A stretch of DNA of 64,000 nt from Octopus sinensis. Lineage: Eukaryota. The stretch covers positions 12,524,001-12,588,000 of the forward strand of contig NC_043023.1 of the NCBI RefSeq assembly GCF_006345805.1, read 5' to 3'. This document shows positions 3,001-57,000 of the stretch, one piece after another. Made by a program: the position numbers. Each line of letters opens with the position of its first letter. Position 1 is the first letter of the stretch.

Positions 3001-6000
3001 AAGGATCGCTAAAAAATTATTTACTTTGTGTAAAAAAATTATTTATTTTGTGTTTTATTTACTTTGCTAGGCAGTCGTTGTAGGATCGACTAGTCACGAC
3101 TAACTAGGGCGTGTGCGCGCACAGGGACCACTCTTTTTAAATAGTACCGGAGAAAATTTGAACGATTAATCTATTTTTTAAACTATTTTATACTAAAAAA
3201 TAAAATACGCAGAACGGGCACTCGCGAATATAAACAAACATGTATGTACGTATACGTATGTATTTATGCATATATATGTATTATTATGTATACATATATG
3301 TGTGTGTGTAAGGGTGAAAGAAATTGAATATTAATTAATAACATCAATTTCGTATGGATTTTGGCGTTTGGTTCAGCAAATTATGTTTTTGATATACTCT
3401 ACCGATGATTCGAAAATGATTTGTAAGTAAAATTACACAATCTATTAACGATGAAACAATTGTATAGAGTTAATCCATTTTTTCGTTATTTTTCATTTGT
3501 CCTGCCCCCTTACATTCTTGGCGTGTTGAATTAATGCTTGAGAACAATTCTTTAGTGGTGGATTCCCTTTGTGGATTTATTTCTAACGTTAGAGTGACCA
3601 CATGGGGTCGTTATCTTATTGCTTGTATGTATATATATATATATATATATATATATATATATATATATGTGTGTGTGTGTGTGTATACAAATATATTTGT
3701 AGTGAATCTTGCACGCATGAAGTAGATTGGATCCACCATAGCCAAAATTTTAATTAACCCTTCACCAAATTTTTCCCACGGCAGAACAATAGAGAAATCT
3801 CTATACAGAATGTTGTAAAAGTTTCAATGCCTCAATGGATTCTGACCCCTGCAAACATAGACATTAAATGGATGACAGTGTTGATGTTGTAAGATTTGCA
3901 ATGTTGAATTACTATGTTGTTTAATGATTCTCTTTATCTCACTGCTTCTTTTTTTCTATTTCAGAATATCATACCATGTTGATTTAAAAGAAATTTCTTC
4001 ATTCAGATGTGTGTCTGATATTTTGATTGACTTTCATCAATTAAAGGAAGACCATATATTCATAAGACACATTCATCAAAACATCAGCTTCTTTATATAA
4101 ATAAAATCTTCGCCGAACGATGGGGAAATATTTCTACTGGATGATGGAATATTTCTACTGGATGATGAGCAACATTTTTTTTGCCATCTGGAATGTAGAG
4201 ATGATGATGAACCTACAGGTTAAGTTTGAGTAACTTTACGAAAGAGTTAACCAATTTATATCTTCTGGTTTAGATATTAAGCAAGATCACCAATGAAAGT
4301 AACATAACATTTAATTATTCTCTGATGCATTTGAACACAAACATTCATAGAAATGAAACAGTTACTATCATTGTGATATGTATAACGAAATTATTCTCTC
4401 ATAATGAATAATTCAACTAAAGCAAAAATCTCTGATAAAAGAGAAAAGCCATATCACTGTGATATCTGTGGTAAGTCATTCTCTCATAGTAGTAATCTAA
4501 GAAGGCACAGACGTGTTCATACAGGAGAGAAGCCATACCATTGCGATATCTGTAGTAAATCATTCTCTACCAGTAGTGGCTTAAATAAACACAAACGTAC
4601 TCATACAGGAGAGAAACCATATCAGTGTGATATCTGTATTAAATCATTCTTTACCAGTAGTGACTTAAATAAACACAAACGTACTCATACAGGAGAAAAA
4701 CCATATCAGTGTGATATCTGTGGTAAATCATTTTCTGAAAATGGCACTTTAACTCATCACAAATTTATTCATACTGGGGAAAAGCCGCATCATTGTGATA
4801 TCTGTGGTAAATCATTTTCTCAAAGTGCTAACTTAGCTACACACAAACGTACTCATACAGGTGAGAAACTATATCAGTGTGATATCTGTGGTAAATCATT
4901 TTCTCGAAGTGCTGACTTACCTAAACACAAACGTACTCATACAGGAGAGAAACCATATCAGTGTGATATCTGTGGTAAATCATTTTCTGCAAGTAGCTCT
5001 TTAACTCCTCACAAATTTATTCATACTGGGGAAAAGCCGCATCAGTGTGATATCTGTGGTAAATCATTTTCTCAAAGAGCTGATTTACCTAGACACAAAC
5101 GTACTCATACAGGAGAGAAACCATATCAGTGTGATATCTGTGGTAAATCATTTTCTGAAATTAGCTCTTTAACTCATCACAAATTTATTCATACTGGGGA
5201 AAAGCCGCATCAGTGTGATATCTGTGGTAAATCATTTTCTCGAAGTGATGACTTACCTAAACACAAACGTACTCATACAGGAGAGAAACCATATCAGTGT
5301 GATATCTGTGGTAAATCATTCTCTTACAGTAGTGACTTACCTAAACACAAACGTACTCATACAGGAGAGAAACCATATCAGTGTGATATCTGTAGTAAAA
5401 CATTTTCTGAAAGTAGCTCTTTAACTCGTCACAAATTTATTCATACTGGGGAAAAGCCGCATCAGTGTGATATCTGTGGTAAATCATTTTCTCGAAGTGC
5501 TGACTTACCTAAACACAAACGTATTCATAAAGGAGAGAAGCCATACCATTGTGATATCTGTGGTAAATCATTCACTATAAATAGTCATTTGACTAGTCAT
5601 ATACGTATTCATACTGGGGAAAAACCATATCAGTGTGATATCTGTGGTAAATCATTTTCCCAGCATTCTACTTTAAACAAGCACAAACGTATTCATACAG
5701 GTGAGAAGCCATATCATTGTGATATCTGTGGTAAATCATTCTCTCACAGTAGTGACCTGCTTAATCACAAACGTATTCATACCACGGAAAAAACCATATC
5801 ACTGTGATATCTGTGGTAAGTCATTTTCTGATAATAGCAATTTAATCATTCACAAATGTATTCATACAGGTGAAAAACCATAACATCGTGATATTTGTGG
5901 TGAGTCCTTCACTCAAAAATGCCACTTAAGTACACATCTAAGTATTCATACACAGGTGTAATCGTATCAATATCAAAATTTTTTACAACCCGGCAGGACA

Positions 6001-54000: not shown

Positions 54001-57000
54001 TAATTACTTTGGTAGGTAGTCGTTGTAGGATCGACTAGTCACGACTCTTTTAAATAGTGCCGGAGAAAATTAGAACGATTAATCTATTTTTTAACTATTT
54101 ACACTAAAAAATAAAATACGCAGAACGGGCACTCGCGAATATAAACAAACATGTATGTACGTATACGTATGTATTTATGCATATATATGTATTATTATGT
54201 ATACATATATGTGGTGTGGTGTAAGGGTGAAAGAAATTGAATATTAATTAATAACATCAATTTCGTATGGATTTTGGCGTTTGGTCAGCAAATTATGTTT
54301 TTGATATACTCTACCGATGATTCGAAAATGATTGTAAGTAAAATTACGCAATCTATTAACGATGAAACAATTGTATAGAGTTAATCCATTTTCGTTATTT
54401 TTCATTTGTCCTGCCCCTTACATTCTTGGCGTGTTGAATTAATGCTTGAGAACAATTCTTTAGTGGTGGATTCCCTTTGCGGATCTATTTCTAGCGTTAG
54501 AGTGACCACATGTGGTCCTTATCTTTTACTTGTATGTATATGTTTGTGTGTGTGTATACAAATATATTTGTAGTGAATCTTGCACGCATGAAGTAGATTG
54601 GATCCACCATAGCAAAATTTTAATTAACCCTTTCTGACCCCTGCAAACATAGACATTAAATGGAGACAGTGTTGATGTTGTAAGATTTGCCAATGATTAA
54701 ATGGACGACAGTGTTGATGTTGTAAGATTTGCCAAGTGAATTACGGTTTGTTGTACTATGATTAATGATTCTGTTATCTCACTGCTGTCTTTTTTTTCTA
54801 TTTCAGAATATAACATCCTGTTGATATGGAAGAAATTACTTCATTCAGATGTGCCTCTGATTTTTATCAGCTCCCATCAACCAAAGGAAGGAGTATCATG
54901 TATAGGTCACATAGAGATTCATCACATACATCAAACTCATCTTATAAAGGAAATCTGTGAAAAACAACAGCAAAATCTGTCTGGAATATAGAGGAGATGA
55001 TTGTTTCCAGGTTAATTAAGCTTGGATGACTTTACAAAGGTGGTTGACAATTGTCACCTCTTGATTAGATATTAAGAAAAATCACAGATGAAAGAAGCAT
55101 AGCATTGAATTATTCTCTGAAAATAGCAGAAATAATTTTTTTCCTATTTCATAATATCATACCATGTTGATTCAAAGAAATTTCTTCATTCAGATATGTG
55201 TCTGATATTTTTATTGACTTTCATCATCAATTAAAGGAAGAACATATATCATAAGGCACATTCATCAATACATCAGCTTCTTTATATAAATAAAATCTTT
55301 TACGAACGATGGGGAAATATTTCTTCTGGATGATGGAATTAAGAGAGCAACTTTTTTTTTGTGCCATCTGGAATGTAGAGATGATGATGAACCCTACAGG
55401 TTAAGTTTGAGTAACTTACAAAAGAGTTAACCAATTTATATCTTCTGTTTTAGATATTAAAGCAAGATCACCAATGAAAGTACATAACATGTATTATTCT
55501 CTGATGCATTTGAACACAACCATTTCATAGAAATGAACAGTTACTATCATTGTGATATGTATAACGAAATTATTCTCTCATAATGAATAATTCAACTAAA
55601 GCAAAATCAAAAATCATGATTAAAGAGAGAAGCCATATCAGTGTGATATCTGTGGTAAACTCATTCTCTAAAATGTTGTAATCTAGTAGGGCACAGACGT
55701 TTTTCATACTGGGAGACAACCTTATAAGTGTGATATCTGTAGTAAATCATTTTCCTGACAAAAGCTCTTTAATCTCATCACAAAATTAATTCAACTATAT
55801 CTGCGGGGACAGATGAACCTCACGCACGTGAAAGATGCATACGTGGTAACATGTGGTAATCCATTTCTGAAGTGCTGACTTACCTAAACACAAACGTACT
55901 CATACAGGAGAGAAACATATCAGTGTGATATCTGTGGTAAATCATTTTCTCAAAGATCTGATTTACCTAGACACAAACGTACTCATACAGGAGAGAAACC
56001 ATATCAGTGTGATATATGTGGTAAATCATTTTCTCGAAGTGCTGATTACCTAAACACAAACGTACTCATACAGGAGAGAAACCATATCAGTGTGATATCT
56101 GTGGTAATCATTTTTCTAAAGAGCTGATTTACCTAGACACAAACGTACTCATACAGAGAGAAACCATATCAGTGTGATATCTGTGGTAAATCATTTCCTG
56201 AAAATAGCAATTTAACTCATCACAAATTATTCATACTGGGGAAAAGCCATACCATTGTGATATCTGGGTGAATCATTTTCTAGAAGTAACAATTTAACTG
56301 ATCACAAACTTATTCAACAGGAGAGAAGCCATACCATGTGATATCTGTGGTAAATCATTCATTAGAAATAATAATTTGACTAGTCATATACGTATTCATA
56401 CTGGGGAAAAACCATATCAATGTGATATCTGTGGTGAATCATTCTCTGAAAATGGCCCTTTAAAACAGACACCTACGTATTCATACTGGGGAAAAACCAT
56501 ATGGAGTGTGATATCTGTGGTAAATCATTTTCCCATCATTATACATTAAGGAGCACAAACGTATTCATACAGGTGAAAAACCATATCATTGTGATATCTG
56601 TTGGTAATCATTCTCCGAAGTAAATCATTTGTCGGTCACAGACGTATTCATACAGGTGAAAAAAAACCGTATCATTGTGATATCTGTGGTAAATCATTCT
56701 CCAAAGTAATCATTTGTCCTGTTCACAAACGTATACATACTCGGGAAAAAACCATATCACTGTGATATCTCTGGTAAGTCATTTTTCTGATAATAGCAAT
56801 TTAATCAGATCATTCAAACTATTCATACAGGTGAAAAACCATAACGTTGTGATATTTGTGGTGAGTCATCTCCTCAAAAACGCCAATTAATTAAGTACAC
56901 ATCTGAGTATTCATACACAGGTGTAATCGTATCAATATCAAAATTTATTACAACCCGGCAGGACAATGAGACCACAACCCATGGCCTCTACCTGGGATGT

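What the first reader, a model, noticed from the sequence alone, without database searches (positions are those of the whole stretch)
4404..56926. Constant-variable-constant finger shuffling across near-identical gene cassettes
Seen: promoter, intron, leader and 3'UTR are highly similar between units, as are finger 1 (xS(G/S)NL(R/S)RH) and the last finger (QKxxLSxHLSIH). The middle is a mosaic of shared helices in different order and number. RSADLPKH occurs in copies 1, 2, 5, 6, 7; TSSDLN(K/R)H in 1, 2, 4; RSNILTDH in 3 and four times in 4; (Q/R/K)RADLPRH in 1, 3, 7; YSSDLPKH in 1 and 3. Variation is concentrated in helix positions -1 to 6. Known: octopus genomes have large clustered C2H2 expansions, and PRDM9 and KRAB-ZNF arrays diversify by minisatellite-like recombination. 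Inference: out-of-register exchange among 84-bp units builds a combinatorial repertoire of DNA-binding specificities without KRAB, possibly aimed at TEs.
Basis: partly seen in the sequence, partly recalled or inferred. Interest (0 to 1): 0.8.

Follow-up and report, generated by a model that had tools for sequence, protein, structure and literature searches.

The report
Tandem zinc-finger gene cluster, mostly decaying
This is a young tandem cluster of KRAB-less multi-zinc-finger genes whose finger arrays differ mainly by gain and loss of 84-base units along a shared order, an ordinary way for such gene families to evolve, and most copies look disabled.

Summary
The window holds at least eight 8-10 kb tandem units. 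Seven carry a one-exon C2H2 finger array, 108 units of 84 nt in all, and an eighth starts at the window's right end.

**Confirmed.** Identical helices shared between copies far exceed chance (26 pairs against 0.26 expected). Variation sits at helix positions -1 to +6.

**Corrected.**
- Order is mostly conserved: 84-97% of shared internal units are colinear.
- Units group by type across copies, not by copy.
- Only copy 4 is fully open. Copies 1-3 are cut short near the 3' end. Copies 5-7 carry stops, frameshifts, a 2.6-kb insertion and an array fusion.
- Some of the frameshifts may be assembly errors.

**Mechanism.** The arrays changed by duplication of 1-5-unit blocks, some after the copy was already dead, by unit loss and by rare chimeric units. 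Amino-acid-changing substitutions concentrate in the helix (pN/pS 3.4 against 0.31 in the scaffold).

**Verdict.** This is birth-and-death evolution of a lineage-specific ZNF cluster, as known from KRAB-ZNF clusters. It is not combinatorial shuffling. The transposable-element (TE) targeting idea remains untested. I class it as a new member of a known kind, of modest interest.

The parts
4404..5970 (+). Copy 1: ATG, 13-residue leader and 18 finger units (types ABBCDDCDCDDCDEFGHI). The ORF closes at 5807 after a +1 shift in unit 16. Unit 17 ends in TAA.
14795..15940 (+). Copy 2: 13 units (ACDBHHGJHHHGI), all 84 nt long. In-frame TAA in the linkers of units 9 and 10 (same G-to-T change in both). 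The ORF closes at 15592.
22667..23977 (+). Copy 3: 15 units (ACKLDBEMNOGPFGI). One codon is missing in unit 14, and a 1-nt deletion sits in the helix of the last finger. The ORF closes at 23935.
32183..33655 (+). Copy 4: the only fully open gene. 490 aa, 17 fingers (ALEBLMGNBQLLLENGI), from ATG to the family's usual stop.
40415..41474 (+). Copy 5: 12 units (ACCMGNBCDEGI). 11 of 12 units are not 84 nt long. Two in-frame stops, one Cys-to-Ser change, and the leader is shifted by two A-run contractions.
43945..44729 (+). Copy 6: upstream flank, leader and the first 5 nt of finger 1, 94-97% identical to the same part of copies 2-5 (84-88% to copies 7 and 8; copy 1 gave no >=600-nt match, but is 0.970 identical over the proximal 480 nt).
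44730..47369 (.). 2.64-kb insertion that splits finger 1 of copy 6. It contains a (TCA)n run, GC-rich repeat copies, and an ORF on the minus strand (45363-45869) resembling the tail of a retroelement protein.
47370..48089 (+). Copy 6a: the rest of finger 1, seven D-type units and one B unit. A 2-unit block carrying a CGA-to-TGA stop is present three times. The array ends abruptly at the second His codon of unit 9.
48090..48844 (+). Copy 6b: a second array (ACDEFGRHI) that starts with a first-finger-type unit and is joined directly to 6a. It is colinear with copy 1.
55588..56931 (+). Copy 7: 15 units (first finger degenerate, then CDDDDCLENFTUHI). 12 of 15 units are not 84 nt long. Four in-frame stops and a 54-nt insertion in unit 2.
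63805..64000 (+). Copy 8: leader and start of finger 1 (63859), running off the window.
29270..32182 (+). Conserved upstream flank, given for copy 4. Equivalent stretches precede every copy. It includes a roughly 410-nt tandem duplication that copy 1 has only once.
33656..34160 (+). Conserved downstream flank, given for copy 4. It is homologous in all copies for about 500 nt. Beyond that there are three unrelated classes: {1,6,7}, {2,3,4} and {5}.

Best explanation
This is a segment of a young tandem cluster of lineage-specific poly-C2H2 zinc-finger genes with no detectable effector domain. The source genome is probably an octopod-like mollusc. The cluster evolves by birth and death.

1. **Ancestral gene.** It already had a long array of at least 11 distinct finger types between a fixed first and a fixed last finger.
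2. **Divergence after duplication.** After the 8-10 kb unit was duplicated, each copy's array diverged mainly by in-register loss and tandem duplication of 1-5-unit blocks (84-420 nt). This points to unequal crossing-over or replication slippage in an 84-nt repeat. Rare exchanges broke inside a unit or joined two arrays.
3. **Substitutions.** Amino-acid changes concentrated in the DNA-reading helix.
4. **Outcome.** One copy is intact, three are cut short near the 3' end, and three are pseudogenes.

Shown: the anatomy, the unit types, the colinearity, the duplicated lesions and the helix excess of non-synonymous change. Inferred: the recombination mechanism, DNA binding and any function.
For: - **Unit types predate the copies.** In the ML tree of 108 units, the 15 listed clades (UFboot >=90, SH-aLRT >=80) of four or more units each hold units from 3 to 7 copies, 13 of them from 4 or more. 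The copy label changes 69 times, against 72.8 (range 66-80) in 300 shuffles.
- **Order is conserved.** Summed LCS is 160 of 176 shared units. 18 of 28 array pairs are perfectly colinear. None of 2000 shuffles reaches the observed value. With internal units only, the ratio is 0.84-0.97 at four thresholds, and at most 0.5% of shuffles reach it.
- **Block duplications exist.** c1 f04-08 against f09-13 is 0.90-0.96 identical. c2 f05-07 against f10-12 is 0.92-0.95. The c6 2-unit block occurs three times at 0.98-1.00. TRF gives 92% matches over 47442-48090.
- **Lesions were copied with their unit.** c6 f02, f04 and f06 share the CGA-to-TGA stop plus a T-to-G change. c2 f09 and f10 share GAA-to-TAA.
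- **A unit type is chimeric.** c1_f11 and c3_f11 are G-type in the 5' part and D-type in the 3' part.
- **Two arrays are fused, and finger 1 of copy 6 is split by an insertion**.
- **The helix is under different selection.** In 15 disjoint reciprocal-best unit pairs between copies 1-4, helix codons give Nd 29 and Sd 2 (pN/pS 3.4). Scaffold codons give Nd 15 and Sd 12 (0.31). Fisher p is 0.0014, and pS does not differ.
- **Neutral divergence is low.** Scaffold pS is 0.065. The gap-filtered upstream tree has end branches of 0.017-0.032, and 0.072 for c7.
- **3' array types match the 3' flank classes.** Copies {1,6,7} end in ..HI and copies {2,3,4,5} end in ..GI.
- **Only C2H2 families hit in Pfam**.
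Against: - **Some order violations are real.** 16 of 176 units break colinearity, mostly those involving copy 5. Strict reciprocal-best internal pairs show little conservation of relative position (Spearman 0.24, n=15, p=0.40). The closest relative of c4_f03 is c5_f10 (clade support 100/90), at the other end of the array. So exchange beyond simple gain and loss did occur.
- **Selection above neutrality is only suggestive.** Helix pN against helix pS gives p=0.087, and against pooled pS p=0.026. When pairs are chosen by scaffold similarity, helix dS is also high (0.25 against 0.06). Most helix differences are therefore old differences between types.
- **Frameshift counts in c5, c7 and c8 may be inflated by consensus errors**.
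- **Alternative history.** The arrays could be old paralogues whose flanks were homogenised. I could not exclude this.
- **No external data.** There are no expression data and no outgroup locus.
Confidence: 0.72

Rival explanations
1. Out-of-register exchange scrambles a set of finger modules into new orders. This builds a working combinatorial repertoire of DNA-binding specificities aimed at transposable elements.
For: - The same finger types occur at different ordinal positions.
- Chimeric units exist.
- There are a few robust positional discordances.
- The helix carries excess non-synonymous change.
[quoted passage not shown] Those authors themselves ask for experimental validation.
Against: - Order is 84-97% colinear and always above shuffles.
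- Differences in ordinal position come mostly from local amplification and loss.
- Only 1 of 7 arrays is fully open.
- Amplification also occurs in dead arrays.
- No target was tested.
Confidence: 0.15
2. Assembly artefact. The mosaic arrays, or the apparent decay of copies 5-8, come from mis-joined or poorly polished long-read consensus in a 95-99% identical tandem repeat.
For: - 1-nt indels are patchy while substitution divergence stays similar. Upstream flanks of c1-c4 have 1-3 each in about 2.6-3.0 kb aligned. c5 has 26, c7 has 26 and c8 has 43. Substitution divergence is 1.8-3.7%, except 13.4% for c7.
- Flank bins of the window have 0-5 such indels per kb, against 15-26 per kb in others (bins overlapping the finger arrays, up to 36 per kb, are left out as inflated by misalignment).
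- 17 of 31 one-nt deletions in arrays c5-c7 lie in homopolymer runs, which make up 27% of columns (p=8e-4).
- The leaders of c5, c7 and c8 are shifted by A-run contractions.
Against: - Copies 5-7 also carry lesions that indel errors cannot make: 9 in-frame stops by substitution, Cys/His replacements, a 54-nt and a 2.64-kb insertion, and an array fusion.
- Each array has its own unit content and private substitutions.
- There are three different downstream spacers.
- The window contains no N.
Confidence: 0.1
3. PRDM9-like concerted evolution. Gene conversion keeps homogenising units within and between arrays, and identical units in different copies are recent conversion tracts.
For: - c1_f06, c2_f03 and c6_f03 are identical over 84 nt.
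- The uncleaned upstream alignment rejected the downstream grouping (AU p=2.5e-49).
Against: - The longest exact matches between arrays are at most 112 nt. Matches between upstream flanks are 80-333 nt, so the array matches are no longer than expected.
- Units do not cluster by copy.
- The flank conflict rests on a few clustered sites. It vanishes when columns within 6 nt of a gap are dropped: 818 columns remain, {c5,c8} support falls to 74/80, and AU p rises to 0.249.
Confidence: 0.05

Closest known systems
Vertebrate KRAB-ZNF gene clusters (e.g. the primate KZNF loci of PMC3126818)
   Same: - Tandem clusters of young paralogues, with the whole finger array in one exon.
- Finger duplication and deletion are called 'a common path for divergence' (passages read).
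- Contact-residue divergence, with many pseudogenes beside live genes.
   Different: - No KRAB or other effector domain was found here.
- The leader is only 13 residues.
- In primates, finger-number change was rare in pseudogenes. Here a dead array amplified a stop-bearing block.
PRDM9 zinc-finger minisatellite (PMC2779102)
   Same: 84-nt unit arithmetic, unit-number change, and excess amino-acid change at the helix positions (passages read).
   Different: - No PR/SET or KRAB domain.
- PRDM9 fingers are more than 90% alike and homogenise within an array. Here mean unit identity is 0.77 and units group by type across copies.
Cephalopod lineage-specific C2H2 expansions (PMC12513265, PMC9795677)
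   Same: - Large clustered, tandemly duplicated C2H2 families in octopods.
- The [13 protein letters not shown] finger scaffold is also seen in the 9 named octopod proteins fetched.
   Different: - Those studies work at gene level (trees, expression, chromosomal clusters). In the parts I read, none treats finger-unit order, pseudogene content or helix selection.
- None of the 9 fetched proteins has this leader; I read them by eye and ran no motif scan for the helices. The best hits of the search on the first 60 residues aligned over 65-95% of them, none over all.
FiNZ-ZNF genes of cyprinid fish (PMC10547256)
   Same: A KRAB-less, lineage-specific, massively duplicated ZNF family, with positive selection reported at base-contacting residues in some clades.
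   Different: FiNZ genes have a conserved 28-aa N-terminal domain on its own exon. Here there is only a 13-residue leader in the finger exon. No link to TE repression has been shown.

Membership tests
Krueppel-type tandem C2H2 zinc-finger proteins | Repeated C-X2-C-X12-H-X3-H motifs that match Pfam zf-C2H2 | tested here: met
   72 motif matches. Copy 4 hits PF00096 at E=3e-89 and PF13465 at E=2e-150.
Krueppel-type tandem C2H2 zinc-finger proteins | Conserved TGEKP(Y/H) linker and a 28-residue period | tested here: met
   84-nt spacing in 61 of 63 units of c1-c4. Linker columns are near-invariant.
KRAB-ZNF family | KRAB domain (PF01352) upstream of the array | tested here: not met
   No KRAB hit in the copy 1 or copy 4 ORFs, nor in 10 of the 11 plus-strand ORFs of 55 aa or more that lie upstream of the copy 4 finger-exon ORF. 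An in-frame TAA lies 8 codons before the ATG, with no AG between them. A distant or small 5' exon cannot be excluded without RNA data.
PRDM9-type hypervariable finger array | PR/SET domain | tested here: not met
   No such Pfam hit.
PRDM9-type hypervariable finger array | Within-array homogenisation of units (concerted evolution) | tested here: not met
   The copy label changes 69 times on the unit tree, against 72.8 in shuffles. Mean unit identity is 0.77.
PRDM9-type hypervariable finger array | dN/dS above 1 at the DNA-contact positions | tested here: inconclusive
   Helix pN/pS is 3.4 against 0.31 for the scaffold (p=0.0014). Helix pN against helix pS gives p=0.087, and against pooled pS p=0.026.
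Octopod-specific C2H2 expansion clusters | Source genome is an octopod, and the gene falls inside a named expansion clade | tested here: inconclusive
   The highest identities for the first 60 residues are octopod proteins at 68-73%, but they do not cover the leader. The nearest atlas clusters of the retroelement-tail ORF are mostly Mollusca. No eukaryote contig collection was open, and no tree against the published clades was possible.
Birth-and-death tandem gene family | Intact genes and pseudogenes side by side in one array of duplicated units | tested here: met
   1 open array, 3 truncated and 3 multiply disabled among 7. The indel counts of c5-c8 carry the caveat.

The most novel reading that the evidence does not exclude
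Unit gain and loss may be very fast relative to point mutation. Arrays share only about half their units, while neutral divergence is about 2-7%. If so, the cluster could be hypervariable within the species, as PRDM9 is. Individuals would carry different finger arrays, and the dead copies would act as a store of finger modules that can be copied back into the live gene or genes. That would make it an invertebrate, KRAB-less cassette system for DNA-binding specificity.
Probability: 0.1. Interest if true: 0.65.

Novelty: new member of a known kind. Interest (0 to 1): 0.3.

Why it matters
Cephalopod C2H2 expansions are well known at the level of gene counts and expression. The 2025 survey I read says their evolutionary history and underlying mechanisms 'remain elusive' (PMC12513265, Introduction) and calls a TE arms race 'an open question' (its Discussion section on C2H2-binding sites).

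This window gives a finger-by-finger view of one young cluster. It shows the same toolkit as vertebrate KRAB-ZNF clusters, without a KRAB domain:
- unit gain and loss on a conserved order;
- divergence focused on the helix;
- rapid pseudogenisation.

That adds to the case for convergent evolution of such families. It adds no new mechanism. It also warns against reading every tandem ZNF copy as part of a working repertoire, and against trusting frameshifts in patchily polished repeats.

Tried and rejected
- **Three searches of the protein database** were swamped by generic poly-ZNF proteins. None of the listed hits aligned over the whole 60-residue N-terminal query or was a close relative (best identities 73% and 70%). 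All three searches were limited to proteins of 269-858 residues, and the 'longer' and 'shorter' options were not run.
- **Nine named octopod proteins** were fetched. They share only the generic finger scaffold.
- **Conflict between flank trees.** This was first seen as a strong result (AU p=2.5e-49). I rejected it as evidence. It rests on a few clustered sites next to gaps in the indel-rich copies and disappears after gap-proximal columns are removed (p=0.249). The tested group had also been named only after the tree was seen.
- **dN/dS on pairs chosen by scaffold similarity** is confounded. Helix dS is also four times higher, so I replaced it with reciprocal-best pairs.
- **Identical 84-nt units as a sign of recent conversion.** Rejected, because exact matches between flanks are as long or longer.
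- **Rfam at gathering threshold and ARAGORN** found nothing in the window.
- **Pfam found nothing** in the retroelement-like ORF. At E<=1 the only hit among the 10 upstream ORFs was a weak sub-threshold one to ATP-synt_I (E=0.094, 13.6 bits against a cut-off of 25.1).
- **The octopus genome paper** (PMC4795812) is not held. What I say about it is recalled or taken from papers that cite it.

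
Full report
**Anatomy**

The window is a tandem array of units 7.9-10.4 kb apart (finger-1 starts).
- Each unit holds one + strand exon. It opens with a conserved ATG and a 13-residue leader (MNNSTKAK...), then runs straight into an array of C2H2 fingers.
- An nhmmer profile built from the 72 regex-perfect fingers finds 109 units. 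108 lie in seven arrays (18, 13, 15, 17, 12, 18 and 15 units). One lies at 63859, where an eighth copy runs off the window.
- Bases 1-1515 match the spacer that precedes other units. The cluster therefore extends beyond both ends of the window.
- TRF reports an 83-85-nt period (84 in the four clean arrays) in all seven arrays.
- Pfam finds only C2H2 families in copies 1 and 4. At E<=1 it gives only one weak sub-threshold hit (ATP-synt_I, E=0.094) in 10 of the 11 plus-strand ORFs of 55 aa or more that lie upstream of the copy 4 finger-exon ORF.
- An in-frame TAA lies 8 codons before the ATG, with no AG between them. Any N-terminal effector domain would have to splice in after the ATG.
- The gene model is a single exon.

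**The observation**

- Sharing is far above chance. There are 26 between-copy identical helix pairs among 80 clean internal units, against a mean of 0.26 (maximum 4) in 1000 column shuffles.
- Variation is concentrated at helix positions -1, 1, 2, 3, 5 and 6, with 1.9-3.3 bits of entropy against 1.41 bits or less elsewhere. Nucleotide identity is 0.525 in helix codons against 0.851 in the rest.
- Upstream flanks are mostly 0.91-1.00 identical over 3 kb among c1-c5 and c8; c7 is non-homologous beyond about -2450. Downstream flanks are homologous for only about 500 nt. After that they fall into three unrelated classes, {1,6,7}, {2,3,4} and {5}.

- **Copy 4.** Only this copy (32183-33655) is open from the ATG to the family's usual stop.
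- **Copy 1.** It has a +1 shift in unit 16 and a TAT-to-TAA change at the end of unit 17.
- **Copy 2.** It has the same GAA-to-TAA stop in units 9 and 10.
- **Copy 3.** It has a 1-nt deletion in the last finger.
- **Copies 5, 6 and 7.** 11 of 12, 12 of 18 and 12 of 15 units are not 84 nt long. They carry 2, 3 and 4 premature stops, and they have lost zinc ligands.
- **Copy 6, finger 1.** It is split after its fifth base by a 2.64-kb insertion. The insertion carries an ORF whose nearest atlas clusters are molluscan hypothetical proteins, with DUF6451 on 13-19% of members.
- **Copy 6, array fusion.** The array is a fusion. Unit 9 stops at its second His codon and is joined directly to a first-finger-type unit that opens a second array.

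**Caveat on frameshifts**

One-nt indels are patchy along the window, while substitution divergence stays roughly constant.
- Upstream flanks of c1-c4 have 1-3 such indels each. Those of c5, c7 and c8 have 26, 26 and 43.
- Flank bins have 0-5 per kb in some stretches and 15-26 per kb in others; bins over the arrays, up to 36 per kb, are inflated by misalignment and left out.
- Array deletions in c5-c7 are enriched in homopolymers: 17 of 31, against 27% of columns.
- This pattern is what patchy long-read polishing would give. The frameshift counts for copies 5-8 should therefore not be trusted without reads.
- The nonsense substitutions, ligand replacements, large insertions and the fusion do not depend on the indels.

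**Unit types and order**

- Average-linkage clustering gives 21 types at a distance threshold of 0.13.
- In the ML tree of all 108 units, the 15 listed supported clades of four or more units each hold units from 3 to 7 copies, 13 of them from 4 or more.
- The copy label changes 69 times on that tree, against 72.8 (range 66-80) in 300 shuffles. Units therefore predate the gene copies, and there is no homogenisation within arrays.
- Written as type strings (with c6 split in two), the arrays share 176 units without regard to order. 160 of these fit a common order.
- 18 of 28 array pairs are perfectly colinear, and no shuffle out of 2000 reaches the observed sum.
- With the fixed end fingers removed, and at four clustering thresholds, the colinear share is 0.90, 0.97, 0.87 and 0.84. 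At most 0.5% of shuffles reach it.
- The violations mostly involve copy 5. Its M-G-N block precedes the B-C-D-E block, which is the reverse of copy 3.
- Strict reciprocal-best internal pairs show weak conservation of relative position (Spearman 0.24, n=15). Part of this comes from local amplification shifting positions. Part comes from real discordances such as c4_f03/c5_f10.

**How the arrays changed**

- Multi-unit tandem duplications are visible: c1 f04-08 and f09-13, c2 f05-07 and f10-12, and the c6 2-unit block present three times.
- In c6 the tripled block carries a stop codon plus a linked substitution. In c2 two adjacent units share a stop. Amplification therefore continued after these arrays were already broken.
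- The YSSDLPKH unit sits on a D-type 3' part in c1 and a G-type 3' part in c3. The unit is therefore chimeric, with a breakpoint inside it.
- Identical 84-nt units in different copies need no recent conversion. The longest exact matches between arrays are at most 112 nt, against 80-333 nt between upstream flanks.

**Selection**

- I used 15 disjoint reciprocal-best unit pairs between copies 1-4 with identity of 0.90 or more. Helix codons show Nd 29 and Sd 2. Scaffold codons show Nd 15 and Sd 12.
- That gives pN/pS of 3.4 against 0.31, with Fisher p=0.0014. pS does not differ between the two partitions.
- Whether helix omega exceeds 1 is only suggestive: p=0.087 against helix pS and p=0.026 against pooled pS.
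- With all seven copies (18 pairs), the contrast is weaker: pN/pS 1.64 against 0.41, p=0.057.

**Flank trees**

- The uncleaned upstream alignment gave {c5,c8} at 100/100 support and rejected the downstream grouping {c2,c3,c4,c5}.
- That signal comes from a few clustered sites. After dropping columns within 6 nt of any gap, 818 columns remain, support falls to 74/80 and AU p becomes 0.249. I do not count it as evidence of exchange.
- The cleaned downstream tree keeps {c1,c6,c7} against {c2,c3,c4,c5} at 80/88 support. This matches the 3' array types (..HI against ..GI), as expected from plain descent.

**Origin and relatives**

- The database searches returned generic poly-ZNF proteins. The highest identities to the first 60 residues are octopod proteins at 68-73%. 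They align over only 70-78% of those residues, so not over the whole leader.
- By eye, the nine named octopod proteins fetched share the finger scaffold but not the leader; no motif scan for the helices was run.
- The window is not taken to be human. No human or unnamed-sample protein was fetched.
- The collections of viral and metagenome contigs were closed, and the genome collection holds only prokaryotes. No related locus from another animal genome could therefore be examined. Orthology, family size and polymorphism remain unchecked.

**Literature**

- Octopod C2H2 genes are known to be expanded and clustered. Sources: PMC12513265 (abstract, Introduction, one Discussion section and passages) and PMC9795677 (passages).
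- Octopus ZNF ORFs are predicted to match TE consensus sequences more often than non-repeat DNA (PMC10547256, one section and passages).
- Finger gain and loss, and contact-residue selection, are established for KRAB-ZNFs and PRDM9 (PMC3126818 and PMC2779102, passages).
- Two searches for finger-level or contact-residue analyses in cephalopods listed none. The library lacks most subscription journals, and supplements were closed. The supplemental data of PMC10547256 and PMC12513265 may bear on this family.

**Verdict**

This is an ordinary, if clean, example of birth-and-death evolution in a lineage-specific tandem ZNF cluster. The 'shuffling into a combinatorial repertoire' reading is not supported. 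TE targeting is untested.

Noticed in passing
window 24000-28000, 38000-42000, 48000-52000, 54000-58000, 60000-64000: Blocks with 15-36 one-nt indels per kb relative to the copy 4 unit. The figure is 0-5 per kb in flank bins at 1-4, 12-14, 16-22, 36-38 and 44-46 kb, at similar substitution divergence (bins over the finger arrays run higher everywhere and are inflated by misalignment). This looks like patchy consensus quality in a long-read assembly.
   Followed up: partly
window 31330-32150 (copy 4); equivalents in copies 2, 3, 5; single in copy 1 at 3949-4357: A roughly 410-nt segment directly upstream of the finger exon is tandemly duplicated in copies 2-5 but occurs once in copy 1.
   Followed up: no
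window 9693-10309 and 10995-11614; 11615-12124: A 97% identical inverted repeat of about 620 nt, whose arms contain 149-156-nt tandem repeats. Next to it lies a 147-nt tandem repeat of 3.5 copies with 96% matches. Only the spacer after copy 1 has this.
   Followed up: no
window 18018-18407, 35647-35868, 43528-43776, 44902-45108: GC-rich 61-63-nt tandem repeats recur in the spacers downstream of the genes. They give long spurious ORFs on both strands. They are probably part of an interspersed repeat. There is no Rfam or tRNA match.
   Followed up: partly
window 45363-45869 (-): A 168-aa ORF inside the insertion that splits copy 6. It has no Pfam hit. Its nearest atlas clusters are molluscan hypothetical proteins, with DUF6451 on 13-19% of members. 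From memory it resembles the C-terminal tail of non-LTR retrotransposon ORF2 proteins; this was not tested.
   Followed up: partly
window 49420-50341 and 52626-53451: Purine-rich low-complexity DNA and (CATA)n-like low-complexity DNA give long Glu/Lys/Arg-rich and Cys/Val/Tyr-rich ORFs. These are not genes.
   Followed up: no
window +532 to +663 after the last finger of copies 2-5: ATTAAA and AATAAA pairs are present downstream of copies 2-5. None occurs within 700 nt downstream of copies 1, 6 and 7. This follows the two downstream-flank classes.
   Followed up: no
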